Source of the DNA: Gnetum montanum
Lineage: Eukaryota; Plantae; Gnetophyta
Reading direction: 5' to 3'
DNA: 64,000 bases
NCBI GenBank assembly: GCA_015680685.1
Contig: MNCI01000550.1
Location: forward strand, 9,794-73,793
Shown here: piece by piece, positions 761 to 63,370 of the stretch
Position numbering within the stretch: position 1 is the first letter of the stretch
How the letters are laid out: the number at the start of each line of letters is the position of its first letter
Notes under the pieces: generated by a model
What the model was told of the DNA's origin: nothing
Database searches by the model: none
What the model saw: the letters and a program-made list of their open reading frames with translations, nothing else
Position numbers and translations under genes: made by a program

Positions 761-3700
761 ATGGCTAGCGGCATGGCAGTTACTGGTGCTGCTCCGGGCG
801 TGCACGTGGCGGGGGCTCCGTCGAGCATGACTTTGGCGATCGCGGTGCCGTCCGAGGTACCAGCGAGGCCGCCTCCGCCGCCGCCGTCGTCGTCGTCGTC
901 GGCGTCGGTGGCGTCGCTGATTTCGTCGTCGTTGGTGGCGTCATCGGCGGCCTCCTCCATCATACGATATGCCAGCGGCGGCGGCCCGGATGCGCTTCGT
1001 CGGATTCTTCACGACCTCTGCACTCGTGGCAATCCCAAGGTGGACATAAAACTCACCGCATTTTGTTTTCGAAATCGTTGAGCTGTTTTCGTCGTTCGAT
1101 TCTTAAACCCTAGCCATTGCACAAGGTCCCAGCATGATCATGTTTTCCGCTTTGTCTTCACATGGTCGATTACGCCATTGTTCTGGTTCTTAAACCCTAG
1201 GAATTAATTGGATTCCCGGAGTCCTTGTCTCGGATTCATGCTTAAGTTGGGAATCTATGTTCTGTTGAATTGTTGGTGCTTCGCGAGGTTGTGTCAACTT
1301 GGTTAGGTGTTGTGGTTAGCTATCTTGTGACCGTGCCTTGTTGGAGGACTGATGTTTTCTGTTTCTGAACGCATTGTATTGAATGAGGGTGTACACAGAA
1401 CTGTTTTATTCCTTAGCATAAAAATTTAAATTTAAATTTGTTTTCATTCCTTATAATTATTGTTATTTGTACATTTAAAGTTTTCCATCAATTGGTCGAT
1501 GAACTTGAGTGTTGTCCATCCGATTGATGGCATATTTTTAGATGTTATCATTTTGGTCTTTTGATTATACCATTTATCCTTTGGTGCATCTATCTATGGG
1601 AGCTATGATTAGAATCAATTGAGCCAGCTATGTTCCTTAGATTAGCTAAAGTTTATGTAAATCAGCTGGCTTGAATGAATTGAGTCCTTTATTGAGTGAT
1701 CTCAGCTAAAATTGATGACACTCAAATTTGTTATTGTGTGAAGCTTCTACGGGTTTATGGTAGCGTTTTTTTATTGAAAGAATGTTTTATCGATACCTGA
1801 ATTTTGTTTAGTTGATTTTTTTTTTCATATATGGAAGTTTAGGTACTTAGATAATTTCTTTGCTTGGTTTTATTTGATTTCGATATATTGTCTCTTCAGG
1901 AAGGTGCCATTGCGGCACTCAGAAAGCATGTGGAGGAGGAGGCTCGAGATCTCAATGGGGAGGCTCTCACACGATTTCTGGACCAATTGTATGATAGGAT
2001 ATCTGCTCTTATGTTAAGCAGTGATGTTGCCGAAAATTTAGGTGCCTTGAGAGCCATAGATGTGTTGATTGATGTCAAATTAGGGGAACGTCTTTCAAAA
2101 GTATCCAGATTCTCAAATAACATGCGGTACCTATTTGAAGAAAAACATGATCATGAGGTTTTAGTACTGGGAAGCCGTGTTTTAGGGCATCTTGCTACGG
2201 CTGGAGGTGCCATGACAGCGGATGAAGTTGAGCATCAGGTTAGACAATATAAAGAATGTTTTGTATAATGTTTTAGTACATGTATGTTTTATGTTGATGT
2301 TGTCTTAACTATTCAAGAGAAATGCGTGGTTGCATCATTGACCACAGGTTAAAAATGCTTTAGGATGGCTTGGAGGTGAGAGGGTTGAGTACAAGCAACT
2401 GGCAGCTGTTTTGATTCTTAAAGTGAGTAGCTTAATTGCTGAAAGGAAAGGAGCATCCAATGACACATCCCCTTTAAAGTTAGATAAATTAGGAAAATGT
2501 CTTTGTTTCATAGCAAATTCCAATATGAAGATGAGCTGCAGTGAATAAAATGTCTGAATAATATACATGGGTTGTTCCTTTTTTCTTTTCGTTTTCTTTT
2601 TTATGCATTGCAGGAAATGGCTGAAAATGCTCCAACAGTTTTTAATGTCCACGTGCCTGAATTTGTGGATGCTGTATGGGTTGCTCTTAGAGATTCATCC
2701 TTAACTGTTCGTGAGCGGGCTGTGGAGGCCTTGCGTGCTTGTTTGTGTGTTATAGAAAAACGTGAAACAAGATGGAGAGTCCAATGGTACGTTATTATAC
2801 AATCCTTATGCTTATTTTCGTATTTCATTATAGTCAAGATGAATAATTTTCAGTTTTTGAGAATCTAGTTCAAGAGGGCATTTTATTGCAAGTTCCAAAG
2901 TGCAACTTGAAAATGAGAAAATATAACTACGTTCATTTATTATGATATAGAAACAAAATAAGCTAGAGCTGGTTGATCTTTTATTCTATTGAAGATACCA
3001 AATTTCTTTTGCATATAGAAAAAAAATATGACCAGGAGGATCCTTGGCTTTATATTTCTATATTTAAGGAAACTAGTGCTTGACCATATCCTCAATTTCT
3101 TGCTTTATGTTAGCCCAAATTGCCAAATAACTTTTAGGATTTGCCTTCCCTAAAGATCTCTATTAGTATTGTTTGGAAAAGAAGAATGGGGTTGGTTAGG
3201 TTTACAAAAAAAGCCTACAACGTTCCATGCTGTATTTTGACGTTAATGTAACATTGCATTTTGTTTGAATTTCTTTCAACTTCGCCATTAATGATAAAAC
3301 TCTAAAAGCTTCAATTTGCATTGTAACTAGTCAAAACATTTGTAATGATAGGATTCATGTATATGTGAACAGCCTAAATAACATCAACATACCAATAAAA
3401 TAGAAATCACTAATAATAATTATAATAAAACTTTTGTGTTTATTACATTGTTAGCTCCATAAGCCTTTTTTGTTTTTTGTAAGTTTGAAAATGTGTTTTT
3501 TTTTTAAAATATAAAAAGCTTTCATGTATCATTCAAAATTGAGGGGATAATCCTGATTTTTGAAAACATTTGGTTAATAAAATAACACAGTGCAACAACA
3601 TGAATGAGATAAAGTTGACTTTTTGAGTTATAAATTGTGAATAAGGCATGAGACATGGGTGTTCCTCATAAATGTTAACAGGTAGTGTGTGCCAAGAAAG

Positions 3701-6700
3701 GGCAGAAGTTGATCTACAATTATGTTTGTAAAAGATAGGTTCCATATGACAAGTGTGAACAAGATATGTTTTAGAATTTCCATATAGACGTTTGGAACTC
3801 ATGAACAGCGTGATGAAAAAAGTTAAGCTTGAAAGGCATGTTTGGGCCTAAAAAAGCACAAGAAAATTGTAATATTTTTTATACTTTTGACATGTAGCAA
3901 AAGTATTTCAGAATGACAAGTTTGAATATTGGTACAAAAACTCAATATGGAATTTAATAATTTTGACATTGCATGAAGTGTTGTTTAAAAGTATGATAGA
4001 GGTCATGATGTTCACTTTGTTTTTAGGAATCTGTTGGGTTGTGTTCTGGAAATACAAGTCATGTCATAAGGGTAGAAGTATTGTTGTTATGAAGTACAAT
4101 TCAAATGAAAGGACTGTGAATTATTCTTGAGTCTTGGTAACTTTATAAGTGATAAATTATTCTTGGATTCTCATAATATTTCATGAACCATTAAATCAAG
4201 AGTTATATCAATGTCCAGAAATTCCATGCTTCAGATGGTTTAGAGCATGGGAGGATGGGAATGTATAACTACATAAGTCTGTCAGGGACGGGGTGTTTTA
4301 TGTAAATTAGGTGGAAGTGTATGCAGAGCATGAGTTTAAAAGCAATTGATGAGAAAAATACAGAGCCGGACAGACTTTTCACATACTATTTAAGTATAAA
4401 GAAATAAAAATAGATCATGGGATAATCCTTACAATAACTTGTAACTCTTTTGGCAATATTTAACATGGATTTGAAATTCATCTGCATTTCAAATATCTAT
4501 GCATTGGGAGCATGGGAGTGTGAGAGAGCTCATGTGTAACAGAGTGCAAAAATCTAAGAAAAATCATATGTTTAGAAACTGTCTAGTCTTATTAATGTTA
4601 CGTGATTCAAAACATGGACATGATGTTGCCTTTTGTTTCCATGTTGTTTCAGATGTACTTCAAATTTTATATTAAGTTTTAATGTCGTTAAAGAAAATGT
4701 GACTATTTTTCTTCCTTGTCTTAAATTTGAGACTCTTTGATATCATTTTTTCTCACCATTTTATGCTTTCTAGGTACTATCGCATGTTTGAGGCTACCCA
4801 GGATGGGCTGGGAAAGAATGCTGGTGTTCACAGTATACATGGTTCATTATTAGCAGTTGGTGAGCTTCTAAGGTTAGATACAATATTCCACAAGTCATCT
4901 TTGTTATTGCTTACATTTATCAATTCTCTGTATTTATTCCTGGATTTTTGATGCTATATACAATTTCTTTGATACCTGTTTGTGAATTTGTGCTTTTGCC
5001 CATTAGAAACACAGGAGAGTTTATGATGTCAAGATATAAAGAAGTTGCAGATATAGTGTTTAAATACCGTGAACACAGAGATAAGCTTGTACGACGTAGC
5101 ATCACATCTCTATTGCCTCGGATAGCTCATTTTTTGCGTGACCGTTTTGTTACTTCGTATCTTAAGGTATGTTACATAACTCTGTATCAGTTAAATCTCT
5201 GATTATAGAAAGATTTTGTTGATTCATTTTATCATGTATCAAAATGTTTGTAAGCTAGAAACCATGGATTCGGTTAAAATGTTATTCTTACCTGCGTATA
5301 ATGATTCCTTGTACTGATGGCTGTATCAGATATGCATGGATCATATTCTTACAGTACTTCGGACTCCAGCAGAACGTGCAAGTGGTTTTGTTGCTCTGGG
5401 AGAAATGGCAGGAGCTTTAGATGGAGAATTGATAAATTATTTGCCGACAATAACTAACCTTCTTCGAGAAGCAGTTAAGTTTCAATTTTTGTGTTGATTT
5501 CTTTGGCAGCTTATGACACTTGTTGGAATCTTGTGGTTAATGTGCTGTGGATTTTCAGATTTCTCCTCGTAGGGGAAAACCTTCTTTAGAAGCGATTGCA
5601 TGTGTGGGCAGTTTTGCCAAGGCTATGGGTGAGGCTATGGAGCCTCATGTTCGTTGTTTACTAGATGCCATGTTTTCTGCTGGCCTATCACCAACGTTAG
5701 TTGATGCTCTTCATCAGATTGCTTCAAGGTGAGTGTTTTATATGTTGGATTATGTTGAAGTAAGGTTATGATGACTGTTGTTTACTATGGATGCATGAAC
5801 TAATAGAGGCTTGTAACATTCATGATTTTTGAAACTGAAACTGAATGTATTGAATGAGAATTGGGAACTTTTGAGGCTCTCTTGATCTGTTGAACCACAT
5901 CAGTTTCAAAAATTCCTTATATAGAATTTTTCCATATTTCAGCATTGCTTACTGGAATTGAACCTATGACCTTGATTTTTGAAAAGGTAACCTGAGCACA
6001 AATTTTAGGGATGCTTCTATAGAATCTTTGCTTCACACAAGGTGTATAATGTTATGCAATTTTGGCCTTTGATTTTATAAGCAAGTCCTAAAGATTGAGA
6101 TTAGGCCATGTTGTGAAGTTAAACTTTGCAGGTTTTTTATTTTCATACGTGGGCTGTGAAAGTAAACATTGTTGCTACAATACATAACTTTGAAAGTGAG
6201 AAAACTAATTTCATTAACTGACGTTTACAATAAAAGAGCTCGTTGCTGAGTTCTGTTACCTCATTGAGGATTTTATCTTTTGTATCTGTTGTATTATGTG
6301 GTAGGTCTTGCTTAATCTTTTACCTTTTTAACCATGAAACTATTATGCACTGAGCTGTTATCATTATTGCCTTTATTTCATGAGCATAAGGTAGACAGGT
6401 GATTTGGTGATGGTTTGTATGACTGGGTGTGCTGCTGACTCCAACCTGAAATAATGTTTTACTTGAGTTTCCAAGGGGCAGTTGTGGAATTGAACCTTGA
6501 ACCTAATATCTTTTAATTGTATTTTAACTGTTATATCAAGGTTCATTACCCATCACTTTTAAAAGTTAAAGGGATGAAAAATCATTGAATTTTTCCCTCT
6601 TATTAGCTGCTGAAATGTGTTGCGAAAGTTGCAATGCAAGGGGCTTACAAACATTTTCATTTTATTATTTCACATCTCATCGGTAGGCTTCTTTGTAGAT

Positions 6701-7726
6701 TTCCTGGTATGTTGAAACTGTTTGAACTATCTGTTAGATGCTTATTTGTGTCTACAAATTTGATGGTAATATTTATGGTATTAATATTTTATGGTCCTCA
6801 TCGCAAGTAGAAAAGGTGCCTGAAAATTCTAACATATTGTTTTTTTCTTTTAAGAAGTTATTTTTTTCTGACATTATGATTTGCCACAGTTTGCCTTCTT
6901 TGTTGCCGACAATTCAAGAGCGCTTACGTGACTGCATATCTATGGTGTTATATAAGGCATCGAACCGAATGACAAGACCAGATAATACAGTGCCTTGGAC
7001 AAATACTGTTATGAGCAGCCATCAACTTATTGATGGTATTGGTCCAGCGCTTGTACAACTTGCATTGCAAACATTGGCACAGTTTAATTTTAAGGTGGGT
7101 TATACTGCATTGGTATAGCTTAGTTCTGTGACCTATAGATATAGCTTTTGAACACAGTTGTCAATGATAGCTAAAGTCCATATTTTTTTCAGCAAAGATA
7201 AATTTTTTCTTGTGTGGGGTGCAGGGTCATGACCTTTTAGACTTTGCAAGGGATGTTGTAGTAATGTTTCTAGACGATGAAGATAGCATTACTCGGAGAG
7301 ATGCTGGAGTTTGCTGTTGTAAGTTAGTGGAAACGTCCTATTTTGCTAGTACTATGCCATCACATTTTAGCACTAGTCGAAATGGACGTCCTACCGGTGG
7401 AAGGCGACAACTATTGGTTGAAGAGGTACTTATGATATTTTGTTCATTAAATAAATATTGGCAATTTGTTAGCAGCAGTGCCCTTTTCAATATCTTCTGA
7501 TATTTCTTTAATAAAAAAATTGATAGGTTTTCTTACATTAAAAACTTGGCTTATTTGTCTTGCCACATTGCAGATTATAGAAAAGCTTCTCACTGCAGCT
7601 GTTGCAGATGCGGATGTAAGAGTTCGGAAATCTATTTTTGAATCTCTGCATGTCAATGAAGGCTTTGATGAATTTTTGGCCCAGGCTGATAGCTTGCGTG
7701 CTGTGTTTGTTTCTCTCAATGATGAG
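761..7726 (+). CDS. TOR: TOR exons 1-11 (N-terminal extension and N-HEAT repeats)
   Basis: GT-AG bounded exons encoding [19 protein letters not shown]...[18 protein letters not shown]. Confidence 0.95.
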
Positions 7727-10700
7727 GTAACGCTAGATTCTTGTTTAGTATATGATGAAGCAATTTCATATTGTAATATCTTCCTGTAGATTTTGAGAAT
7801 TTGTTAGATTTCTAACTGTTGAATTATTTCACTCAAGCAACAGTTTCTAATTTATTCTGAGTCAACAAAATCTTTTTTGGTAATGGTGTGAGACAATGAA
7901 TTGATGAGTCACATGAAGGATATGCATTGGTTGAGGGAGGACTATTTTAAAAAGGCCGATGGCTTCTAAAGTAAGAGTATGGATAAATGAAAGATAGAAG
8001 AAAGTAACATGTAGAACCAACTACCAAGAAGAGAGGTCATTAACTATTATTGGAGAACCAAATTGAAGTTAGTGCCACAAACTGAACACTGAAAGATGAG
8101 AATGGTGAGGAGTGAAACTACAGAAGGTTGAATGAGAAACAGGTGACACAGCCTGAGCAAAGAAAAGATGAAGAGTGTTTCTAACATTACTGAATGTTAG
8201 TGGACACTGTTATGGAGTGATCACAAGAGTAATTGAAATTGACTTCATCAAGAGTACATCTAGACTCCTCCAATGAATGGAATTCAATGTCAAGGAGTAG
8301 AGTAGCTATTCAGTTCATGAAGCAAGGAATATTAGATTGAAGACTGGTCTGATGTAAGAAAAGTTAGGATTAGTTGCGGTAGATTTGAGAGGATGTAAGA
8401 GGACAATCCTCTTACTAACAGAAAACCTATGTTATCAAACCATGTTGTATATCAAACCTCCTACATCTGTATCTGCAAGAGCTTCAGTAAGAAGCTTTTT
8501 GATAATCTGCAATGTATTGAGATAAATATACCACATAAGTATTTAATGTGAGAAAACCTATCAAAATTTTTATTAAAAATATTTTCAGAAAATATTAAAA
8601 AGGGCCAACCATCACTGCTTCTAACAACTTACCAGTATTTTATTTAATGAACAAAATATCATAACTACCTCTTCAAGCAGTAGCGATGGTCTTATACTGC
8701 TAGGACGTCTGTTTTGGCTAGTGTTAAAATGTGATGACATAGTACTGGTGTGTTTCCACTAACTTATAGCTGAAAATTCCAACATCTCTCTGTCTAACAG
8801 TATTTTCATCCTCTATAAAAGTTACCGCAACATAGTCTAAAAGGTCATGACCCTGCACCTCACCCACGACAAAATTTATCTTTGCCAAAAACAAATATGG
8901 ACTCTGGCTATCATTAAGATCTTTGTGTGCAAAAGAAACATCTAGAGCTTGTAGAACCAAGCTATAGCAATACAGTATAAGCCACATTAAAATTAAACTT
9001 TGCCATTGTTTGCGTTGTAGAAGAGCTGGGCCACCACCATCCATAAGCTGATGGCTGCTCATAACAGTATTTGTCCAAGGCACTGTGCTATCTGGCCTTG
9101 TCATTCAGTTCAATGTCTTAGATAACACCATAGATATGTAGTCAAGTAAATGTTCTTGAATTGGCGGCAAGAAATAAGGCATACTGTAGCAAAACATAAT
9201 GTTATAAAAACACAAAAAAAAAAAACAGTATATTAGAGCTTTCAAGCACCTTTTCTGCATGTGATGAGGACTATAAATTGTTGACTACATAAGTATTATT
9301 GTTGATTAAATCTAACAGATATTTTAAACAGTTTCAACGTATCGAGAAATTTACAAAGAAGCTTACATATGAGATGTGAAATCATAAAAATGAAATGTTC
9401 ATCAATCCCCTTGCCTTGCAAATTTTGCAACACATTTTAGTGGCTAACAAGAATGGAAAATATCAATGATTTTTCATGTCTTAACTTTTAAAAGTGATAA
9501 GTAATGAACCTTGACATAACAGTTTGGACACAATTAAAAGATGTTAGGTTCGAGGTTCAATTCCACAACTGCCAGTTGGAAAATTGAGGAAAATATAAAT
9601 TCAGGTTGGAGGAAAATACAAATCATCATCAAATCATCTGTCTACCCTAATGGGACACCTCATCCTCATGAAATAAAGGCAATAATGATAAAAGTTCAAT
9701 GTATACCAGTTTCATGGTTAAAAAGGTAAGAGAAAACAAGACGTACCACCCAGCACAACAGATACAAAAACTAAAACCCTCAATGAGGGTAACAGAACTC
9801 AGCAACTAGCTCTTGTATTGTAAACATCACATAATGAAATTAGTTTTCTGACTTTATCTGATTCACAAACTAAGTAATCTGTGTTACACAAAAGTGTGCT
9901 TGCTGCCAAATTCCTGCACTCTGAAGTGTAAGGTGTTTCGTCCTAGTAGCGCTCCAGTATTGCAGCGATAAAATATGTGAGGTATGCGTGTGCTATGGAG
10001 ACCGGAGAATGCTCATGTTAGAAGAGGTCGCTTTATTAAAGTTGAGGGGAACCAACCAAGAGGTAGACCAAAACATTCTTGGTTTGCCTGCATAAAGAAA
10101 AACATCTAGGATTTAAGTATTAACTGCTTATTTGGCTCTTAATACAAGAAAATTGTGTGAAAGAACTCATATAGCTGACCACATGTAGTTGGGATAAGAC
10201 TAGGATGATAATGATGATGATGCATGTGCTTGTATGCAGGAGTGTGAAGGTGCACAGGTGAGCATTGTGTCATCTATGTTGATCCCTGTGTGTAGTTGCA
10301 GATGACCAGTGTGAATGGGTGTCAGTGTGCTAGCACAAAAGAGGCCAACAGTTAATGGACAGAGGCCACCACATTTGTTACAATGCTTAAACTTAGTCTT
10401 CTGTAGTGTGTAATGATATCTGTAAATGCTTTCAGGGCAGATTCTATAGATACTTTTGTGTGCTCCAGTTTTGCTATTTGTTACATAGTGTATTAATTTC
10501 TGCAGCATGTTCTGGATTGTGCCAGCCTGCATAGCTTTTACGTTAGCTTTTTGAAATTTAGACGCTGCCCAAAAGAGGAATGTGTGGAAGAAACTGCATA
10601 TCTAAAGTAGAGAATTGACCAGATCTTTATATTTGTCAGTTTCTTGTTTGTCTTCTTTGTGTTTCTGTAGCTTGCCTGAAAATTCAAACAGCAGTGAACT

Positions 10701-13700
10701 GGAAAATGAGTGATGTACTCTGTACTGCTGATGTGGTGGTGGTGGTGGTCTTCAGCAGTGATGTGCTGGCCCAAAGTTTGGACACCGTTGTGCAAAAATG
10801 GTCATTGTTGTTCTTGGGTCGTAGGGTGCAACTTTCATCCTTAAAAGATCTTTAAAATAAAAGTATCCTATTCTAATGGATCCGAGCATGTAATGTACGT
10901 GGGCTATAATGCTTTCAGGGCCGATTTTATAGATACTTTTGTGTGCGTCATTTTTGGTCTTCTATAGCATATAATAATATCTGGAAATGCTTTCAGGGCA
11001 GATTCTATAGATGCTTTTGTGTGCTTCAGTCTTGCTATTTGTTGTATATCATATTAATTTCCATGGCACATTCTGGGTTGTGCCAGCCTGCATGGCTTCC
11101 AAATTAGCTTCTAAAATTTAGACCCTGCCTAGAAGAGAATGTGTGGAAAAAACTTTATACCTGCAATGGAGAATTGGCCAGATTTTTACATTTGTCAGTC
11201 TCTTGTTGGTCTTTTTTGTGTTTCTGTAGCTTGCCTGAAAACTGAAGCAGCAGTGAAATGGAAAAAGAGTGATGAACTCTGCATTGCTGAAAACTCAGAC
11301 AGCAGTGCTGTTCTGGCCCAGACTTTGGACAGCATTGTGCAAAAATGTTCTTAGGTTTTAGGGTGCTACTTGAATCCTTAAAAGATTTTTAAAATAAGAT
11401 AGGTAAGTCTAGGGAATTTGAGCATGCAATACTTGTGGACCTAGTGTGCGAGACACTATAAAACCAAAACTTAAATTTTTTATGTACTTGTTTTTCCTTG
11501 AAATGAGGAATTTTGTTGAAGGATGAAAAAATTTTATTTTTAGATTTATTTTAACAATTTTTCATTTGTGCTTTCATACAGTTTTTCTTCGCTCCCTTTT
11601 ATCTTCTCTTTCTCCTGAACTTGTTTGTGGGCACACTTCCCTACACCCATGATCCCATGTTCCCAAACCATGTGAAAAATAGCAATTGACTTAAACGCCC
11701 TCTATCCTACGATAATTTGTAATCCATATTGTACTTATTGTACGCAGTCCAATGACCACGTTATTCTGTTATCACAAATATCCAACTTGTCATTATAAAA
11801 AAATATTGCAACATATGTTGTTAAAGCAGGAGAATATTAGGAGGTAAGAGTAAAGTTTGATCGTTGATGTGCAGCCTTCCGGAGGCATTGCAAATGGAGA
11901 GATGTGAATGTGAAGAAACAAGTATGAGAAGTAGAAAGGAGAACTCACAATTGTGGCCATGGTAGGAAATAGAGACTTCTTGAGGGCACATAGTCCTACT
12001 AGTTTGCATAATTGGATTGATGGGTGATTTATATTTTAATTTTAGCTCGTGTCTGGGTGATTGAGACTTATTTCATAAGGAAGAAACATTGAGAGGATAT
12101 AATGGGTACGTCTTTGGCCTTCTTTTTTTTGGTATTTGATACGGTTGTTTTTGTTTGTAATGTTGAAATGATGAGGTTGTTTCTTTTAGATTGGGTTAGT
12201 TTATTTTCTGGTGTTGGACACTTCAACATTGTCTCTTTTATACTCGTAAAATGTTATCATCCAGCTTTAGACTGATGACTCTCATTTGACTTTCTGAACA
12301 ATTTTAATTCATTTGTTTTTTTTCTCTGTGAACTGGCCACTGTGCAAGGTGTAATTTTTGTTTGTTAGAAAATGTAAAATAAGTAAATAACTGAAGTAAT
12401 TCATTTACTGGTATTAACGTGTTTTTAGAATCATTACTGATCAAGTATGTGTTTTGTTAATGTTTTGACAAAATGTAGGCCTATGAAGTACGGGTTATTG
12501 CTATATCAATGGCTGGTAGATTGTCTGGAAGAAACCCAGCATATGTTCTTCCTGCTTTACGTCGTCATCTTGTTCAACTTTTGACAGATTTGGAACAGAG
12601 GTCAGAAGAGTGTGCATTTTCAGTTATTTTATCTTTGTCACATTAGATTTTGTTGCTACTAATGCCAAAGTTAGAAGTTTTTAATTTAATGTTCAAGTTT
12701 TCTTTTTAATTTATCAACAGTGCAGATAGCAAAAGCAAGGAAGAGAGTGCAAAGTTATTAGGGAATCTGATTAAGTCATGTGAAAGATTGGTGCTGCCAT
12801 ATATTGCCCCAGTTCACAAGGTGAGTTTAAGAAAATCATAAAGCTCTTCTGCATATCATATTTTCGTCATTGATTTTTGTCTCTGTTTTTGAGTAATTTT
12901 GCATTGGCATGATCATATTTTCTTCATTGATTTTTGTTTCTGTTTTTGAATAAATTTGAATTGGCATGATTCTTTTAGAAAGCTAATTATGGGAGGGGCA
13001 GTTTTTCATAAGCATAAAGCATGTCTGTATTTAGATGATAGGGTTAACATTTTGTGACTCAATTGCAGGCTTTAGTTGCAAAACTGTGTGAAGGTACAGG
13101 TGTTAATGCCAATAATGGAGTAATAACAGGTGTAATTGCAACAGTGGGAGAACTGGCAAGAGTGGTAAATATTCAATAGTGATTCAGTTTTCCCTAGTAA
13201 AATGTCTTGAAAATTGTTTTGATAATTATTGAAAAATGAAGAAGCTATTTTATTTGGTATTTACCAATTTTTGTGGTATGGCAAAGATTTAAATAATTTG
13301 GATACAACAGTTTGAAATGTTTTTCTTGTACTACAGTTGCTGTATGGCATACACTTGCAGATTATAATAGCATCTCTTCTCAGTTTCTTATTGTGAATTT
13401 ATAGGGAGGGTGTGCTATGAGGGATTATGTACATGAGCTAATGCCCCTGATTGTGGAAGCATTGCGTGATGGAGCAGCTGCCATCAAACGTGAAGTTGCT
13501 GTTGGTACTCTTGGTCAGGTTGTTCAGAGCACAGGGTAAGGATAATATGTTCTTTTTTTTTTTTGGGATACTATTTGTTGTCTGCGATATAAAATTTCTG
13601 GAGTACAACCAGGGAATTTTTGGAATCCTATATATCGACAAGGAACATGATCAACGGTCCATTACATAAGTATTGAATGTGAAAATGCCAGAAATTTAAA

Positions 13701-16700
13701 TAATTATCAATATGATACCTATCTATTCTTAACCTTAATTTACAGCTTATAATTTGAACACTTTTGATGACTCGGAAGTTTAAATCTCATTCTATGCTAT
13801 ATTGCATTTAAAATTTTCAAATTTTTGCAGCCTATCACCATGCTCTCTGTAAATTGTTTTGCCTTGCAAAATTTCAAAGATGACATGTGCTAGTAGCATG
13901 CCCCAAATTTTAGTTGTACATCAGTTTTTGTTATTATATAATGGTGATTTGTATCTGCCCAAACAGCATCATTGCAGGTATACACAAGTGCAGTGCAATG
14001 TATTAATTTATCCTTGTGCATTTTACAAAATCAACAATTATTAACTATGTAGCATCCCTGTGTCATCGAGTTATCTATTTTCCAAAGTCGTCTTTCTTTG
14101 TCCATTTCGTTAAATATATGAACATTAGAAATCAGATCCATTTTTTTTAGTATAACATGCTTCTGCTAACTGGGGTAAATTTGTAACTAGCATGAGGTTT
14201 AATACAATGATCGTTTTATCCACGTATGTACTGTTTCAAGTTCTCCTTGTAATACTGATGCACCAAGAATATGTACTCCTTCTAAGAATTCTTTTGTTTG
14301 ATATTAATAGTTTGCCGACTTCATCACTTTCACCCAATATTGGATATACAATTTATCTCCAGAATTTGATTAAATAATTTGATCATCCATAGGATTACAG
14401 ATGAATGAAAATACCGATTTTTACTCTCTGCAATGAACCAAGAAAGGAGAACCTGTCAATCTGCAGTGACAGAAGAAGCAGAAGGGGACAATAATGGAGT
14501 TCAGAGAGATAATGATTGATTCTTCATAAAGAAATGATGATTATTCTCTGTTTTGATATTGAAGCTATAAAGTGTTGTTGCAAACTGGTGTGTAGTTTTG
14601 GAGGAAGAGCGATGATTATCTGATCAACTTTTGTATCAGTAGAGACAGCAGAAGAAAAAATATATGGTATGAACAAGGAGGAGAAGTAGAAGGAAAGAAT
14701 ATAATCCACACCTTAGAGTAATTCTATAGGGACAGTGAGTGATTGATAGAAGATATAAAAATGGAGTGTATCTGTTTAACATATCTTTATAATAATTTAT
14801 CCATTGTCAACAAATGACGATTTTGAAAAAAAATTAATTCAAAGGTATTTTCTTTCAGCATAATAGTCAACTTTCTTGTTTAAAGATCTACCAAATTTCA
14901 ACATGATATTAGATCAAGGCGTATGAACTTTGAATGGGAATAAAGAAAAGTCAGAAGAATTCAGACTGAGAAAATCAAAACCTTCAACAAATCAATGAAC
15001 CATTGGATTTGTAAGAAAATAAGTAACCAACTCAGGAATCTGGCTGGAATGATTTCTGTTCCAAATGATGATCTGCTTACAAGAACCAATTAGAGAATTG
15101 GTATATAGTATAGATCAATGACTATTGAGGAAGACCCAAGAGGGGGAATTGCCGGATGATTGAAGGAGATGATGGCTCTTCTTGTTGGGGTGAGATGGCT
15201 CCCTACATTATCATTATTAACATCATTGGCTTGGGCTTTGTTTGGCCTGGTTTCCTTGGAACCGTTGGACTCGTATACCAGCGGCATGCCTATGTTGTTT
15301 AGGTCTTCCACCTGGTTCTCCTCCATTTCTGGGGATTTTTTTGCTATCATTAAGTTTTCTCGCCAGTTCTTTTTTTCCCTGGCTGTTTCTTCCTCTGGGG
15401 CTTCTAACCATCCGTTTGGCCATCTTGTTGTCGCATAATGTGCCCTACATCGTGCTTTGGGGTTGTGCATTGGTACTGCTGCTATTACTTCATTTGCTGC
15501 CTATACCTGGGGGCTTTTGTAGCATTGTAATACAATATGAGCGCTGGTCTCTAGGGCATCCTTGAAAATGGAACACCTGGCTGGTCCTAGGACACCCTGC
15601 CTTGTTAGCATACGTAATACCCCGTGGATAACTAGAAAGACAGTATGAGAATATCTAAGGAATACTACTAAAGAGAAACAAATAGTATGCCATAGGTGTC
15701 TGGGCATAAATTCCAGTTTGTTACTTAGTCATGTTACCTAGAATTCCAAACCACAGGACTAATCATGCATATGTTTTAATATGACAAGCAGGGAACCAGT
15801 GATTGTCATGCACTAAATGAATTTTATTAATCAATAAATAACTTATATCATGCGTTCAGTGATGTTAACCAACATTTTCAACTTACCATTATAACCAGAC
15901 TTCATGCCCAAGTTAAATAGACATCAATAGCCCATCACATACTGATATAAGAAAACCTGGACATGTAACAATAGATGCAATCACAAAATACTAAGACTAG
16001 GCCTTGGGCCCTTATGATGCTAACTAAAAACCGATGTCTGCAAGCTTCTCTAGAACTTCCTCCAAACTTGCACATCTCTAGGCCCTTATGAAGGTTATGA
16101 TGCCCTTTGTTGTTGAATTTATATGTGTAAGCTAGCTAGATGTCATAGGTCAAATCTCATCCTCGGATTAAGTCCTAGACTGTCTCTCTCTAATGTCATG
16201 ACATGTTGTAATCAAGTTACCATGTAAACTCAAGTTTTTATTCTTTAACCACTAGGAGCTGGTACCTAACTGCTAATAGCCCAATTTTACCCATCTGTTG
16301 TACGGAATCGACAATGTGTTGGCTATCTACCAACCAAACTGTTGGCTATGCTCTCCAACCCTGATTGATAACGAGTGCTCTTGGTTGGCACCAGAGTCTT
16401 GACGGCGAACTCCTTTTCCGGCCCGATTGGGATATTAATGCACCCCATTGACTCACGTGTGACAGCCAACGCTGTACCATGGTCATGCTATGCCATCGCC
16501 ATGCCATGTCACCATGACATGATTTTATATTATTTTATATGCCTATTTCTTTATGCTCGTTTGGGTATTCAAAAAAAAAGTATCGTTTCTGCGCCCATTT
16601 CTTTTTTGCACTTGGGCATTCATCATATGTACTGCTGCCGAAAAAAACAAGTTAATTTTCTTTTTGCAGAGCATGTGAAGGCCAATGATCCAGCAGCAAA

Positions 16701-17752
16701 ATGCAAAGACTGTGCAGTCCTCCCAATCTCATTCATACTCATTTTTGCTGGGTTTTCCCAATCCAATTTATATTCATTTTTTCCGGGCTTTCTCTGCTCT
16801 TTTTTTTCTTATTCCCAAGACTAACATCATGAACCACCTATCACTAATTCCATGCACCACCTATCACTAGGTCAATAGTGCCTTGCGTAACTCGGCATAA
16901 GGTATTAACACTGCATATCCAAATGATATCCCATCCAAGAATGAGAAAGAGGTGTACCAAATTTCAGTATTATGCAATCCGAGGTGCAGGACAAATCTTA
17001 CATGATTTAAGGAATAACATATACATGAGCAACAAATAAAATACTAAAAATACCATGCTCCCCAACAAAATATGCCTGTAAATTTCTTAGCATTATGAAC
17101 GTTCTCAATTATTAGCATTGAGAACTAGTGCTTAATAACTTACTGAGATAAGGACCTGATATTATCATCGAAATGAACTGCAACTGGTCGATGGAAATCA
17201 GAGGTATCTAAATATCTTTTCTTCAAAATGCTAGACATGGAATCTCGCACTATTTTACATAAAAATACATATTGAGAAAAAAGAAAAGTTATAACAGCAA
17301 TAGTTATTTGATAATGTGAAGCTATGAATAAAATTAGCCACCAGTACGGCAGCTAAATTTTGCCAGATGAATATAACTTGGGAAGAAAAGATATGTATGT
17401 GCCAGCAGTTGTATCCTCGGTTCTTAATCCTTCGTTGAATTGTGTTGAAGCATGCTTATTTTGTTTTGGTCTCCTCTATCAGGGCTTCATATGAGACCAT
17501 TACCTGTTTAAAATTTTCCTCAGCAGCATCTGCATTCACATGCCAGCCATTCAGAAGTTAGAAAGCTATTCTTAAAATAATAATATAAATGGGATTGGGA
17601 AAGCCCAGCAAAAATGAATATAAATGAAATTGGGAGGCCTGCACAGTGTTTGCCTTTTGCCGCTGGATTATCGGCCTTCACATTGCTTTGCAAAAGAAAC
17701 TTAACCTGTGTTTTTTTGGCAGCAGTATGCAGGATGAATGCTCAAGCGCAAG

Positions 17753-17795
<43 letters not shown>

Positions 17796-20700
17796 AGAAG
17801 AAGAAAAGAAAAGAAAGAGCGCAAAAACAGTATTTTTTTTCCCGAATACTCAAATGGGCATAATGAAATAGGCATAGCGATGGCAGAGCATGGCGATGGT
17901 ACAGCGTTGGTTGTCACACGTGAGTCAACGGGGTGCATTAATACCCCAATTGGGCCCAAAAAGGAGTTCTCCGAGTTTTGATTACTCTGGACTACTGTTA
18001 CCTGGTCTCTCTGCTCAGAATTGACTGCCAAGGTGTCCACTCCTCTTTCACCATTGTATCCTTTGGATGGGACTTGATCAGAATACGCTTAGTCCTTTGT
18101 GACAGGCATATGTTGTTGTTGTGTGTGTTTTTGTTTTTGTTTTTTTTTTATTAATTTTTCGTTGGTGGTGAATTGTCATTTAGCTGTGGTCCCCATCCCA
18201 GCGAGTTAATCAATCCACAGGTTACCTATTATCATTCTTAATTTCACAGTTATGATTAGTCCGTTAATTGGTAGCATTGTTTTTCATGGAAATCACAATT
18301 GGTTTTAATAATTGAATCCATTTGGTGATCAGTTGTCTTTATAACATCAAGGTCACATCGTTGACATGAGTACGCATTAGTCTCAATGCCAGTGTTGCCA
18401 AAATGTAATAGGATAATCTCCACATGCACGTTTTGGTTGAAAAACTCCACTTTCATGCAGTTTCTGCCGTCCTGACATGGGTTGCCATTGCAGGATTTTA
18501 CCTCACAATGATTTGTCAAATTCTAGGTCGTGACGTAACTTACCACACTCATTTTAATGGAAAATTGCAAAAATTGAATGCACTGTTGAAATTGTGGAAC
18601 CTCGGCGGTTGTGATTCGAAATTAAAGTCATGGTGAAAGTCCCAGCGGACTGGTACAGTGACGTTGCATGCATGACTTTCTACTACCCCCAAAGAAAGTC
18701 TATAATAACAATTTATGGGGAAAATCACAAAATATCTACTACCCACATAGGGGAAAATTATTGTTTGAAAGTGGTAAAAATAAAACGACATTTTCAATTA
18801 AATTAATCAAACAGTCCCGGTACCCATGTTGGGGAAATTCAATATATGTAAAGAAAGAGAAATACGAAGAGGCCAAATTCTAGGAAAAACAATCCAAAAC
18901 AATAATCAGTGTCCTTAAGGGAAAAAATGGAAATCATAATTTCAGTGCCACAAAATGAAATAGTGCTAGCGCCCCAAAGAGACAGCACTATCAAAATGCA
19001 ATGCCAGAACTGGAGTGGTTAAAAAACATTAACACAAGCTGTTTCAAAATCTTGAGTACGGAAAGAGTGCGTAGACCTAATTAAAAGATGCAAGAACCTG
19101 AAATTGAATACAAAATGCAAAACAAGAATCAGTAGATCTGGCTTGACTTAATTATCGGGGGTGGCTCACCTGCTGCCAAAAGTGCCCAGTCTGTGCAGAC
19201 CAGTGTAAACATTTTAAACAAGCGCATTTTGTTATGGACTCATTGCCAGTAGCCAGGCCAGGCATTAAATACAGGGTTGTATTCTTGTCATTAGCAGCCG
19301 TCCTTGTCAGCTCTGCAATGCTTTATCAGCAGCACGGTGGTTTGTTCTTTGTCATTATCAGTGTCTGTCATTGTGTGGTCCTATGTTCAGTCCTTTGCAA
19401 GCTGTTTTATGTTGAAGATCTGATTCCTTTTTTCTCCTTTGCTTCTTGTTCTTCTGTAAAACTTTTTCTCCGTATTGATTTCTCTGCAAATGCTTGAATC
19501 AAGAGGTTTTCCTGCTATGCTTGGCATAGTGCCGAAATGAACTTACGGAAAAAATAAATGCTTGTGTTTCTTATATTGCATAGTGCTTTTGTTGTGTGTG
19601 TTTGATTTGTAATCATTTTTTTAACGACATTATTTAGGAAAAAAAAGGCTACAACATTTGCAGAAACAACAGTGCAGTGGTCGGTAATGTAGCAGGGAAG
19701 ACTTTGGGCAGCGGGTGAGCCTGGCTGTAGTTAAGTTGAACCGCAGATCTAATATTGCTGGGACGTCAACCAAACAAAATGTTGTAATTCTTACATGTTA
19801 AATTCTGCAGTATTTTGAAACCCTCGCTTTGAAATTGTAGGATCTAGAAAACATGGCTTCAGCAACACCTCGGCTATGCACCAACACCTTGCTTTCTCTC
19901 CCCTAATGCAAATTCCTGGCACATGTAATTGACCTGCCGGTTTGTTGATCTGTCTGTTCTTCTTCTCTTGGTCATGAACTAGGGTATGCCTGCCACATGA
20001 TGTAATTGACCTGCCTATTTGTTGATCTGTCTGTTACTCTCCTTCTCTTGGTCATGACCTAGGGTATGATTAATGTGGGTGTATTGTTGTTTATTAATAT
20101 AATTTGTTTTTGCTTGCTGGTTTTTGGTATTAGTAATTCAGTGAAGGAAACCATGGAAGAGCTATGGGAAAAGAAAGAGGCATTTAAAATTAAATAGGTT
20201 CAATAGGAAAGTTTTTCTAATTTTGGGATTCTGGCTTTCGCAATGATTAGTTCCTACCTCCTTCTAGAAGGTTCTTTTCTTTTTATTTACAAGCCTTTCT
20301 ATTTTTTTATCATCAACAATTTCTACCGCCTAGAAGGTTCTTTTCTTTTTATTTGGAAACTTGTATATTTATCAACATCAACAAAATGGGGTTGGCTAGG
20401 GTTTGTGATGAGCAAACTCCTAACCTCTTTTTGAGTGCAGGCCAGTTATAGGTGGCTGAATTGGTTAGTTCATCCTCTTGTTCCAGATCAAGTCACACTT
20501 AAAGTATCATATTCAGTATATGTCTTGGGTGTACTCAACGACGGCACCTTACCATGAACTGTTTTATTCTTTTTTTTTTAAAGTCGAATAATTAGCCTCC
20601 TATCTCCCACCTCTAATTTATTTATTTATTTTATTATCTGAGACAGCATGATAATGTTACAGCAAAAGACTTGGTATGATTTGTTTTTGCTGTCCCCATT

Positions 20701-23700
20701 GGTGCTTGGGCAATTTGTAGAGTTTATCTTTTTTTCCATGAAAATGTAATATCTGTCCAATAGCTCGTATGGGTTTTCAGCTATAATAAAGCTCCTATTT
20801 CATTTCATTATTTACTGGAGTTTGAACCTAGGATGCTGGGTAATCGGCTCATTAGTGCTAGGATGTGTGTGGAGGTTGTTTTCCCCTAACGATTTGTTGC
20901 AGGTGGTCATCTTGGACCTACCCTCTAGGGAGGTGAAATTGACTATGAAATATGAGAATGTTCCCTCGGACAAGCCAATCTTGGTGCATCATGGTGCTCC
21001 TGCTCTCACAGGGCCTTTGGATCACAAACTTCTATGGCCCTTAGGATTGGAGAGAGCGTCTACAGGAGCTTCACAAGATTGCTAGGCATGTTCTAGATTG
21101 CCATGCCTGGGTGTTGATTAGGGACTTCAATTAGTGCCTTTACGCTTGGGAAAAGATTGGGGGAGATGTTGCTCCTTTACCAGGAAGTCATGAGTTCTTG
21201 CAATATCTTAGAACTTTTGATTAGTTGATGTGGATATCAAGGGATGCCTTTTTCACTTGGAACAATAGAAGAAAAGGGCCAGATTGTGTCCTATCCAGGA
21301 TTGATAGGGTTTGGGTCAATATGAAGATCCTCCTTAACCATGAGGTCTTTGTTATGGCCATGAGCAGTGAGCGGTGAGCTTTTGATTACCATGCTATGGT
21401 CTGCATGGTTCGCAAATTGGACAAGCTAGGGTCTGTTCCATTTAGATTTGGGCAATCATGGTTGGCGAAACATTGGCTAAGAAAGTTGGTGATGGACAGC
21501 TAGGGGAATTACCCCTTGCAAGCCTACCCTTGGGATTTTCTGAAGCATGTTCTAACTTGGCTCAAAAAGGAGATATGGAGCATGCTGATGTCAGACAAAT
21601 ATTCCTTCAAGGTCTACTTTTCTGCATTCCAGCAAAGATTGCTAGATATCCAGGTTTGACAGGAAAAAGATGAATCGCTAGAGGAGGAGGAACATGAGCT
21701 TTTGATTGCTCTACAACAACTGTCAAGGGAAGAGGAGTAGTACTGGAAAGAGAGATTGCTGGTTAAGTGGCTTAGCAAGGGTGATAGGAACACTTGGTTC
21801 TTTTTTGCCATTGTGAAGGCTAATAATGAAGCCAAAAAAGATTCGAAACATCTTTTGCATGATACACACAACATTGCCCAAGAGATGTAGAAGTATTGGT
21901 TTGGTATTTGGATGGGGGGAGAACCCTCCCCTATCTTTGTCCAAATCCAAAGGATTGTTGGGGAGGAGAATAACCATAGACTCATCACCCTTATCACCAA
22001 CCATGAGTTATTTGATGCCATGGCCTCTCTCAAAGGTGCTAAGGCTCTGGGGCCAAATGGCTGGCCTATTGAGTTCTTCTACAAGCTCTCTGACATCTTG
22101 GGGAGTGATATTTTGGATGCCTTCAACCTCATGTTGAAGTGCGGGTAAGTTAGGCATGAGATCAATTGCTCATGGATTGTGCTTATCCCAAAGATCTCAA
22201 ATTCCACAGCACCAGTGCACTTAAGGTCCATTGGAGTGTGTAATACCTTAGACTGTTCACCAAAATTTTGGTTATGTGTCCACAATCCTTGATGCTGTTG
22301 TTGGTTGGTGCCCACAAGGCTAGGTTTGTTAAGGGAAGATATATCTAGGATCAGATCCTCCTCCTTTAGGAAGTCATGCATTTCATATAGAGAGTTAGGT
22401 TCCTTGATGTGTGCATCAAGCTTGATATCATTAAAGCTTATGATACTGATTATTGGAATGCCCTTTGGGACATTATGCTCATGCAGGAAATCCACCCCAA
22501 ATTTGTTGACCTTTTCATTAACCTACATGCCATAGGAGCCTACTCAATTGACATCAATGGGCAGTTGTTGGGGGTTTTCCTTCTTCTATAGGGGGCTCTG
22601 TCAAGGGGACCTTCTTTCTGCTTACCTATTTATTATTGATATGTATACTATGAATCTATATTGCAAGATAGAAGGGGTTACTTCCATCACCAAACACTAT
22701 GTGGATGACATGATCATGATGACCCAGGTTGTTGTGCCATAGGCACAAGTGATCAATAGGGCCCTTAGCAGAATGGCAAGGGAAGTTGGTGTGGAGCTTA
22801 ATCGGGGAAAGTATGTGATACACTTATTCCATATTCAGGGGGCGGTTAAAGGTAAGGTCTATTAGACGTTGGGGATTTTGCAGGGTGTGTTGTAGGACTC
22901 TTATTTGGGACTGCCCATGTTTGCATGGAATAAGTAGGTTTCTTGGACTTGGTTGGTCTAGATGCTCCAATGCCAAGTGGGGCATTGGACCTTGCATTTT
23001 CTTACAAGAAAAGGAAAGATTATTCTGGTCACCTTGGTCCTTTTTGCTATAGCTAGATTTGTTGCCTCCATTGTTGCTTCTTTGAAAGGTGTCCTTAACA
23101 AAGTAGGCCACACTATTCAAAATTTTATATGGTCAGGAGGGAAAGTTGGTGATCGTATGCATCTAGTTTGCTGGGAAAAGGTAGCTAGGTTGAAACTTGC
23201 AGGGGGTTTGGGGGTGTTGAGTTTTGAAGATGCCATCCTGATGGGGTACCAGGGGATTATAAATAGGTTTTTGCAGAATAACGGGTGTCAACCATAGTGG
23301 GTACTTATCCTAAGAAACAAATACCAACCTTGGACCATGGATTCTAGGGACTCCTACATTTGGTGGAGCCTATGCACCTATGTGCAAAGGAAAGCTTAGT
23401 GGGGGATGATGGGTGTGCTGTTGCACGAAGCTATTAAATACAAATATCCCCTTGTGCATGGTTGTTGAACCACCTGGAAAAGGTGGCTGCCAAAGAAGAT
23501 TAAATGCTTCGTTTGGCTCTTGTTTCAAGGCACGTTGCCTGTTTGTGCCTTTCCAAGGGAGTGGGGGTTACTAATTAATGCTAGCTACCCCCTTTGCAAT
23601 GCTAACACGAAAATTGTGCAACACTTTCTCTACCTTCATCCTTCTACTACTACCGTGTGGAGGGCTGCAACCATTCCCCCATTGTTGCAGTTGCATGATG

Positions 23701-56369: not shown

Positions 56370-57609
56370 AAATGAGATGTGTAAAATTTGAGTAAATTAT
56401 AGAGGGATTAAGCTAATAAGTCATACTATAAAGCTTTGTGAGAGTCATAAAGTAGCTGGACAATTGGAGAAAAACATTGTTGTTCAGTTCTAAAAAAATA
56501 AATGAAATGCACAAAACTTGTGCAAACTACATAGAGGTCAAGCTAATGAAAGACATGGTCTTTAAGGAGTATAGTATCAGAAAATCATTTTGGATTTATA
56601 CTAGAGAGATTTACTATAGAGATTGTTTTTTTCTTGATATTACATGGAGAAATTTTAAAAATATAGAGAAAAATCAACATATGATTTTCAAGCATATCAT
56701 AGGGCTTGAGATATTATTGGGCCTTGTTGAGGAAAAATGTCCTTGATAAATATAGTGGAGTGATTCATGACGTATAAAGGAACTTTAAGATATGTACGAA
56801 GGAATTAGCATTCAAATTAAAATAGCTTGTGGAACCACATTTGAATATCTAGTTGCACTTGATTTTTCAATCACAATAGACTTACCTTAAGGGTTTGTGC
56901 TTATCCTATATACTTGTTTTTGCTTAATATAGATGAATGAACCAAGGAAATACAAAATGAAATCCTGTAGTGTATGCTATTCTAAAATGGAGAAGTGGAG
57001 ACATGTTCTAGAATTAAAAGGCTTAAAAATTAGTAGAAAATCAAATATGTGAAATTGATAAAAATATAAGATGTAGGATAAAGGTGGGATGGTCAAAATG
57101 GAAATACACTAGTGGTGTTGTATATGATGAAAGAATTTTGATAAACCTAAAGAGAGAATTTTACTAGACAACAATCATGCTTACTATCTTATATGGTGTT
57201 GAATATTGAGCAGTACAAAAGAGACATGAACAACAAATTAGTGTGGTAGAAGTGCAAATGTTTAGATGGATGTTGAATGTTTACTAGAAGAGATAAATAA
57301 TACAATAGAGACATTAGAGGAAGACTTGGAGTGATTTCTATTTTAGATAAGTTACTTGAATATCATCTTTGATGGTTTGGATATGTATAAAGAATATTAG
57401 ATAATGAACCTATAAAAAAAAGGTTGCTACATCATTATTTTAGAGAAGCCATCGAAAGGAAAACTAAAAATGATATATGAAAACATGATTGAAGATGATA
57501 TGAAAAAATTGTAAGGAAACGAAGGATCTAGGTCTATGAGGTGAATGGCGAAAAAGAACTCATGTAGCCAACCCAATTTTGTTGGGACATGGCTAGGATG
57601 ATGATGATG
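56370..57609 (+). mobile_element. 5'-truncated degenerate RTE-clade LINE downstream of TOR
   Basis: NYRGIKLISHTIKL, FGFI, LRYVR/DMYEG-like, MFRWML remnants; RTE 3' end tgtagccaaccc..gttgggacatggctaggatgatgatgatg. Confidence 0.8.
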
Positions 57610-63005: not shown

Positions 63006-63370
63006 NNNNNNNNNNNNNNNNNNNNNNNNNNNNNNNNNNNNNNNNNNNNNNNNNNNNNNNNNNNNNNNNNNNNNNNNNNNNNNNNNNNNNNNNNNNNNNN
63101 NNNNNNNNNNNNNNNNNNNNNNNNNNNNNNNNNNNNNNNNNNNNNNNNNNNNNNNNNNNNNNNNNNNNNNNNNNNNNNNNNNNNNNNNNNNNNNNNNNNN
63201 NNNNNNNNNNNNNNNNNNNNNNNNNNNNNNNNNNNNNNNNNNNNNNNNNNNNNNNNNNNNNNNNNNNNNNNNNNNNNNNNNNNNNNNNNNNNNNNNNNNN
63301 NNNNNNNNNNNNNNNNNNNNNNNNNNNNNNNNNNNNNNNNNNNNNNNNNNNNNNNNNNNNNNNNNNNNNN
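63006..63370. other. Assembly gap (365 N)
   Basis: Run of N. Confidence 1.

What the first reader, a model, noticed from the sequence alone, without database searches (positions are those of the whole stretch)
6190..9855. TOR carries an antisense copy of its own exons 9-11 in intron 11 (built-in ~1.4-kb pre-mRNA hairpin)
Seen: ~8457-9855 is the reverse complement of ~6190-7625 (exons and introns, diverged with indels), separated by a ~830-nt spacer. Every TOR pre-mRNA could therefore fold a long imperfect duplex over five splice sites. Established: inverted duplications of coding sequence are the accepted route to plant hairpin siRNA and young miRNA loci. Inference: a self-targeting small-RNA source, or a structure causing skipping of exons 9-11, i.e. 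a possible cis autoregulatory or dosage-damping device on TOR.
Basis: partly seen in the sequence, partly recalled or inferred. Interest (0 to 1): 0.8.

Follow-up and report, generated by a model that had tools for sequence, protein, structure and literature searches.

The report
Old inverted exon copy inside TOR
The growth-control gene TOR of this plant carries, in intron 11, a worn backwards copy of 1.4 kb of its own upstream exons and introns; the unspliced RNA is predicted to fold on itself, but the mRNA is spliced normally and the copy is most likely a harmless old copying accident.

Summary
Window 8458-9855 is a reverse-complement copy of 6193-7622 (78% blastn, E=0; 84% ungapped). It covers 697 nt of intron 8, exons 9-10, introns 9-10 and 49 nt of exon 11, and lies in the 4.75-kb intron 11. 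Contigs from another study bridge both junctions, so it is not a misassembly. A fold pairs 1189 of 1430 arm-1 bases in register, over five splice sites.

Nothing shows that this is used. Spliced contigs from 2 runs join exons 8 to 12 canonically, with no skipping or back-splice joint. The copy decays like a pseudogene: frameshifts, a stop, and 31 of 38 polarised amino-acid changes. There is no significant G-U bias, conserved block or conversion tract. The same gene holds other local repeats of similar divergence.

Best reading (0.72): an old neutral inverted duplication. A leaky self-targeting siRNA source stays open (0.15): 102 of 1377 arm-2 21-mers still score as guides for TOR mRNA. Small-RNA, degradome and methylation data were not available, and diverged relatives were not read. 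The scan noted the same kind of copy in four genes of other genomes.

The parts
761..55197 (+). TOR gene (host). Exons 1-15 mapped exactly, later exons roughly; the end coordinate is the last tblastn match
   Evidence: tblastn of plant TOR proteins; exons 1-15 give an 815-codon frame with no stop and GT..AG borders; 83% identity to the nearest unnamed conifer-like proteins
6193..7622 (+). Arm 1, the original: last 697 nt of intron 8, exon 9, intron 9, exon 10, intron 10, first 49 nt of exon 11
6890..7094 (+). Exon 9 (205 nt); holds the longest exact match to the copy, 6987-7024 (38 nt)
   Evidence: splice joints
7225..7425 (+). Exon 10 (201 nt)
7574..7726 (+). Exon 11 (153 nt); only 7574-7622 is copied
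7623..8457 (+). Spacer/loop, 835 nt: rest of exon 11, its donor site, start of intron 11 and a purine-rich stretch of unknown origin
   Evidence: no second copy in the window by nhmmer; no Pfam family above cut-off in 6 of its ORFs
8458..9855 (-). Arm 2, the inverted copy; broken reading frame (deletions of 7, 9 and 8 nt in exon-derived parts, one in-register stop)
9042..9095 (+). Best candidate source of TOR-targeting small RNAs (sense strand of the pre-mRNA, antisense to exon 9); untested
   Evidence: 34 consecutive 21-mer starts at 9042-9075 with target score <=3, including perfect matches
7727..12478 (+). Intron 11 (4752 nt), which holds arm 2
   Evidence: GT..AG joint in contigs of X8 and X15

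Best explanation
A 1.4-kb stretch of the TOR gene is copied backwards into intron 11, most likely by an old one-off DNA copying error, and the copy likely has no regulatory job. Shown: the copy includes introns, so it was made at the DNA level; it has lost its frame; mature TOR mRNA still contains exons 9-11. Inferred origin: a template switch in replication or break repair that jumped about 0.83 kb back to the other strand, copied 1.4 kb and returned. Inferred reason it is tolerated: each covered splice site is transcribed 0.9-2.3 kb before its complementary partner, so the short introns can be committed to splicing first; the one site needed afterwards (exon 11 donor) is not covered by the arm; and arm 2 is removed with intron 11. 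Any duplex would be transient and nuclear, and weaker with each mismatch gained.
For: Copy decays as a pseudogene: mismatches flat over codon positions (25/144, 24/143, 25/144). Of 48 amino-acid differences, 31 fall on the copy, 7 on the working gene and 10 are unresolved. No significant sign of selection for pairing: G-U-compatible versus A-C mismatches 75:55 (p=0.10 against 0.5, 0.19 against composition); longest exact run 38 nt (p=0.15), run clustering p=0.20, even identity in 8 bins (p=0.45); intron indels go both ways (10 events with extra bases in the copy, 7 with bases missing). A strand-symmetric model with equal neutral rates in both arms is not rejected (p=0.08; best ratio original:copy 0.43). 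Canonical joints exon 8-9-10-11-12 in contigs of X15 (depth 96) and X8 (54-84), and none of the 13 listed joints skips or circularises these exons. Background: a 0.5-kb direct duplication in the same intron (82% ungapped) and a 0.4-kb inverted pair in intron 15 (78%). About half of all 1430-nt stretches of this gene touch an exon and up to 27% cover 400 nt or more. Lags of 934-2295 nt between splice sites and partners.
Against: Neutral-looking decay does not exclude small-RNA output: a long imperfect hairpin needs no fine conservation. The fold is strong and 102 of 1377 arm-2 21-mers score <=3 against the mRNA, 19 perfectly. The sense-strand duplex is computed to be more stable than the antisense one (-756 vs -703 and -847 vs -808 kcal/mol; no null run for this). 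The 20 nt round each of the five splice sites match at 17-19 of 20, 89 of 100 in all, against 84% overall (not tested for significance). At birth the hairpin was perfect over 455 nt of exon of a gene known to be essential in plants (recalled), yet it was kept. RNA evidence is two contig sets that drop rare forms; X23 and X24 gave only 41 and 67 reads and almost none on exons 6-11. Junction microhomology cannot be read after this much change.
Confidence: 0.72

Rival explanations
1. Self-damping siRNA source. Some nascent TOR transcripts fold the hairpin before intron 11 is removed, Dicer-like enzymes cut it, that transcript is lost, and the arm-2 small RNAs guide cleavage of mature TOR mRNA or methylation of the gene body.
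For: Long predicted duplex, still present once introns 8-10 are spliced; 102/1377 candidate guides, 19 perfect, five perfect ones with 5' U at 9049-9062; about 4 kb of transcription between the start of arm 2 and the end of intron 11. Long imperfect Pol II hairpins are DCL2/3/4 substrates (PMC10827316, passages). Cutting of an intronic hairpin lowers DCL1's own transcript (PMC12825306, passage). The copy may evolve faster than the original (ratio 0.43, not significant), as a methylated copy might.
Against: No small-RNA data. No conserved guide block, no Rfam family above noise. TOR mRNA is assembled intact in 2 runs. Sites conserved in the protein are freely mutated in the copy (23 of 152 zero-fold sites), so target complementarity is not being kept.
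Confidence: 0.15
2. Splicing modulator. The duplex hides five splice sites and loops out exons, giving skipped forms (9-11, 9-10 or 9: early stop; 10, 11 or 10-11: in frame) or circular RNA of exons 9-11.
For: All five sites are paired in the fold. The intron-8 part pairs with intron 11, the geometry of inverted-repeat exon skipping (PMC13019944, abstract). Reading-frame outcomes computed.
Against: No skip or back-splice joint among 13 listed joints in 4 runs, 2 of them informative. Partners are made 0.9-2.3 kb after the sites. Nonsense forms could be hidden by decay and contigs drop rare forms, so this is weak evidence.
Confidence: 0.07
3. Same neutral status but another origin or upkeep: made by aberrant transposition of a nearby element, or kept alike by gene conversion between the arms.
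For: A dispersed repeat lies at about 9995-10224, 140 nt from arm 2. Alternative transposition can make inverted duplications (10.1101/2020.01.07.897926, abstract). One allele in run X8 (6961 C>T) equals the copy's base.
Against: No target-site duplication longer than 5 nt and no second copy of the spacer in the window. No conversion-like tracts. Five of the six informative X8 differences break a match rather than make one. The 6961 site is a CpG that can mutate twice.
Confidence: 0.05
4. Assembly artefact.
For: None.
Against: The arms differ at 16% of sites, which a mis-join cannot produce. Single X8 contigs span 7698-9026 and 9215-10034, across both junctions (no listed piece spans 9027-9214).
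Confidence: 0.01

Closest known systems
Templated inverted duplications from template switching or break repair (MMBIR/FoSTeS, fold-back); PMC8421209, PMC11724301, PMC3907307, seen only as search listings with abstract starts
   Same: Local inverted copy of neighbouring genomic DNA, introns included, with a short non-duplicated spacer.
   Different: Old and apparently fixed in a plant germ line; junction signature erased; mechanism inferred only.
Endogenous inverted-repeat siRNA loci (endoIR-siRNA, such as Arabidopsis IR71); PMC10827316 passages, PMC6120631 passages
   Same: Long imperfect fold-back inside a Pol II transcript.
   Different: Those are listed as non-coding loci with shown siRNA populations. 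Here the hairpin is inside a coding pre-mRNA, one arm is working exons, and no siRNA is shown.
MIRNA birth by inverted duplication of the target gene (Allen model); 10.1101/2024.07.25.605110 passages, PMC3237417 passages
   Same: Inverted copy of coding sequence that could yield guides against the parent gene.
   Different: Source and target are the same transcript; 1.4-kb arms with an 835-nt loop; no miRNA duplex shown. The A. halleri paper calls this route relatively rare.
DCL1 intron 14 hairpin (miR838) feedback; PMC12825306 passage
   Same: A hairpin in a pre-mRNA whose cutting would destroy the host transcript.
   Different: There the host encodes the cutter, which closes the loop. No such link from TOR output to hairpin processing is known to me or tested.
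Inverted Alu pairs and loop-out exon skipping; PMC13019944 abstract, PMC13019027 listing
   Same: Complementary intron stretches on both sides of exons.
   Different: Arms are the gene's own sequence and the exons are in the stem, not only in the loop; no skipping seen.

Membership tests
Local templated inverted duplication | Inverted copy of adjacent genomic DNA including introns | tested here: met
Local templated inverted duplication | No target-site duplication of a transposon at the copy's ends | tested here: met
   only 5-nt direct repeats near the ends; weak test given age
Local templated inverted duplication | Microhomology at the switch points | tested here: inconclusive
   flanks printed; 16% divergence hides it
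endoIR-siRNA locus | Long fold-back within one Pol II transcript | tested here: met
   both arms lie in the TOR transcription unit; fold predicted, not probed
endoIR-siRNA locus | Non-coding inverted-repeat transcript | tested here: not met
   arm 1 is coding exons of an intact TOR frame; class definition from PMC10827316 Table 1
endoIR-siRNA locus | Populations of 21-24-nt siRNAs, DCL2/3/4 dependent | not testable with these tools
   no run labelled small-RNA among the 24 listed
Young MIRNA from inverted target duplication | Arm similar to the target gene beyond the guide | tested here: met
Young MIRNA from inverted target duplication | Hairpin locus separate from the working target transcript | tested here: not met
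   one arm is the target's own exons
Young MIRNA from inverted target duplication | Precise miRNA/miRNA* duplex in reads | not testable with these tools
   no reads; Rfam gave 2 matches at E 0.5-1, both far below gathering score
Inverted-repeat exon skipping / circRNA | Complementary intronic stretches flanking the exons | tested here: met
   intron 8 (6193-6889) pairs with 9184-9855
Inverted-repeat exon skipping / circRNA | Skipped or back-spliced RNA | tested here: inconclusive
   none among 13 joints, but contigs drop rare forms and raw reads were too sparse

The most novel reading that the evidence does not exclude
TOR in this lineage carries its own RNAi trigger. A race between splicing and Dicer cutting of a 1.4-kb exon-intron hairpin sets the TOR dose, and arm-2 guides (best block 9042-9095) slice exon 9 of mature TOR mRNA. 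It would be a miRNA-like locus born inside, and aimed at, its own essential host gene, tuned down by decay.
Probability: 0.1. Interest if true: 0.7.

Novelty: new member of a known kind. Interest (0 to 1): 0.22.

Why it matters
As a neutral relic it matters little. It shows that a central plant growth gene can keep a once-perfect hairpin over three of its own exons, which suggests that splicing usually wins over RNA folding and Dicer at lags of 1-2 kb. The locus is a natural test of that race. If small RNAs are made, it would be a cis self-silencing route for TOR dosage, for which my searches listed no case (listings only).

Tried and rejected
No whole genome is held, so no genome-wide count of such copies and no check for a second TOR gene. 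No RNA holder on record and no run labelled small-RNA was listed. Raw-read runs X23 and X24 (about 2% of each read) gave 41 and 67 reads, nearly all partial, with almost no depth on exons 6-11: uninformative. The opposite-strand joint 9206-13553 in those runs (5 reads, 18-20 letters on the short side) joins an A run to a T run; I set it aside as an artefact. Intronic X8 contigs (depth 7-10) may be DNA or pre-mRNA, so I used them for structure only. Runs of organisms E, F and the second B sample (shares 0.15-0.48) were not read, so presence and rate of the copy in diverged relatives is open. A protein search with the copy's 126-codon frame found nothing (1 candidate, weak test). Rfam and Pfam on 12 nearby frames, 6 of the 18 ORFs listed for the spacer among them, gave nothing above cut-off. 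I first read the equal exon and intron divergence (17.2% vs 15.7%, p=0.53) as selection or fast decay of the copy. After allowing for G/C-biased mutation it fits equal rates (p=0.04 with CpG sites, 0.08 without, 0.80 at A/T sites; p=0.08), so a mild excess in the copy stays possible. Columns within 3 of a gap were dropped. Gene conversion: not supported. The inverted pair near 57-58 kb is made of a dispersed repeat, so I do not count it as a self-duplication.
Full report
Observation. A self-comparison of the window finds 6193-7622 repeated as a reverse complement at 9855-8458 (78.2% over 1463 columns, E=0). Three shuffled windows give no hit. The pairwise alignment gives 84% ungapped identity and 20 indel events. 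The spacer is 835 nt.

Host gene. The gene is TOR: plant TOR proteins match in order from about 1 kb to 55.2 kb, and exons 1-15 form an open 815-codon frame with GT..AG borders. A tree of 17 rows places it with conifer TORs on a long branch (100/100). The tree has no fern, cycad or gnetophyte row and is midpoint-rooted, so 'gymnosperm-like' is all I claim. No whole genome is held. Arm 1 holds the last 697 nt of intron 8, exon 9 (6890-7094), intron 9, exon 10 (7225-7425), intron 10 and the first 49 nt of exon 11. Arm 2 lies in intron 11 (7727-12478).

It is real. Twenty of 24 listed runs hold part of 5300-10000 and 8 hold half or more of its words. In run X8 (label D, a third study) single contigs cover 7698-9026 and 9215-10034 with 4 and 5 differences, so both junctions exist in another sample. 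X8's status as RNA is a guess by the tool.

What the RNA could do. The minimum-energy fold of 6190-9860 pairs 1189 of 1430 arm-1 bases in register; the longest unbroken helices are 44, 39 and 36 bp; five splice sites are in the stem. With introns 8-10 removed, 385 of 455 exon bases still pair with arm 2. Of 1377 21-mers from arm 2, 102 score 3 or better against spliced TOR mRNA and 19 match perfectly. Skipping exons 9-11, 9-10 or 9 gives an early stop; skipping 10, 11 or 10-11 keeps the frame. These are predictions.

What the RNA does. Four runs were laid. X15 has a 2793-nt contig with exons 9, 10 and 11 joined canonically and on to exon 12 (depth 96); X8 has the same joints (54-84). None of the 13 listed joints skips or circularises these exons. 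Contigs drop rare forms, and the two raw-read runs had almost no depth here, so minor isoforms are not excluded. No small-RNA, degradome or methylation data were available.

How the copy evolves. It has exon deletions of 7, 9 and 8 nt and a stop. Mismatches are flat across codon positions (25/144, 24/143, 25/144). Against six conifer-group proteins, 31 of 48 amino-acid differences are on the copy, 7 on the working gene and 10 are unresolved (11 gapped codons left out). So the copy keeps seven residues that the gene has since likely changed, which marks it as old. Intron divergence is 0.18 after correction; at recalled plant neutral rates of 1-5 x 10^-9 per site per year this is about 20-90 million years. 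Exons are no more alike than introns (17.2% vs 15.7%). G/C-biased mutation accounts for most of this: equal neutral rates in both arms are not rejected (p=0.08), although the best fit has the copy about twice as fast. Tests for kept pairing are not significant: G-U versus A-C mismatches 75:55 (p=0.10-0.19), longest exact run 38 nt (p=0.15), no clustering (p=0.20), even identity along the arm (p=0.45). Small leanings the other way: the sense duplex is 5-8% more stable than the antisense one (no null), and splice-site neighbourhoods match at 89 of 100 positions.

Background. The same intron has a direct duplication of about 0.5 kb at 82%. Intron 15 has an inverted pair of 0.4 kb at 78% with a 0.77-kb spacer and no other copy in the window. 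Several shorter tandem copies lie in other introns. A random 1430-nt piece of this gene touches an exon half the time. An exon-bearing inverted copy therefore needs no special cause.

Mechanism. Shown: DNA-level inverted copy, broken frame, normally spliced mRNA. Inferred: origin by template switch (no long target-site duplication, junction signal erased) and tolerance through timing, since each covered splice site is made 934-2295 nt before its partner and the exon 11 donor is outside the arm. Confidence 0.72. Rivals: self-targeting siRNA or Dicer cutting of the pre-mRNA 0.15; splicing or circRNA effect 0.07; transposon origin or conversion 0.05; artefact 0.01.

Comparison. It would work like an endogenous inverted-repeat siRNA locus if processed (PMC10827316, passages; PMC6120631, passages), but it is not a non-coding locus and its siRNAs are untested. 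It resembles the first step of MIRNA birth by inverted duplication (10.1101/2024.07.25.605110 and PMC3237417, passages), except that source and target are one transcript. The DCL1 intron-14 hairpin is the nearest case of host-transcript loss by Dicer cutting (PMC12825306, passages). Inverted Alu pairs are the nearest splicing case (PMC13019944, abstract). Six searches listed no paper whose title or abstract start describes this TOR structure. I read listings only, no supplements, and the library lacks most subscription journals. Earlier notes of this scan describe inverted copies of a gene's own exons in slit, VAX2, RIM-BP and MOB1B in other genomes, each judged likely debris. I did not check them and do not count them as support; they suggest the pattern recurs.

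Verdict. Real, old, most likely neutral. New member of a known kind. Interest 0.22. The bold reading, a built-in RNAi brake on TOR, has probability about 0.1, and one small-RNA library could test it.

Noticed in passing
window 16391-16793 and 17560-17990: Second inverted pair inside TOR (intron 15), 402 aligned bases at 78%, spacer about 0.77 kb, close to the 0.83 kb of the main one; no other copy in the window. Local duplication or transposon ends.
   Followed up: partly
window 10393-10894 and 10954-11430: Direct duplication in intron 11 at 82% ungapped identity, with a partial third piece at 10908-10979. Its age is similar to the inverted copy 0.5 kb away, so both may stem from one complex repair event.
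   Followed up: partly
window 57007-57611 and 57805-58335: Inverted pair (75%) past the last TOR match, built from a dispersed repeat also at about 9995-10224 and 50063-50444. Its end looks like the 3' tail of an RTE-type LINE (recalled motif, not confirmed by a call).
   Followed up: partly
window 761-955: The predicted TOR N-terminus has an extension of about 65 residues rich in Ala, Ser and Pro ahead of the conserved start, longer than in the conifer-like proteins. The start codon is inferred.
   Followed up: no
window 6961: Run X8 carries T where the window has C, the same base as the inverted copy (Ser to Leu). Parallel CpG decay, ancestral allele or conversion.
   Followed up: partly
window 20900-23900: Decayed LINE-like reverse-transcriptase remains in the 12-kb intron 15, judged by eye from the sequence; one frame tested gave no Pfam match.
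   Followed up: no
window 63006-63370: Assembly gap of 365 N, far from the finding.
   Followed up: no
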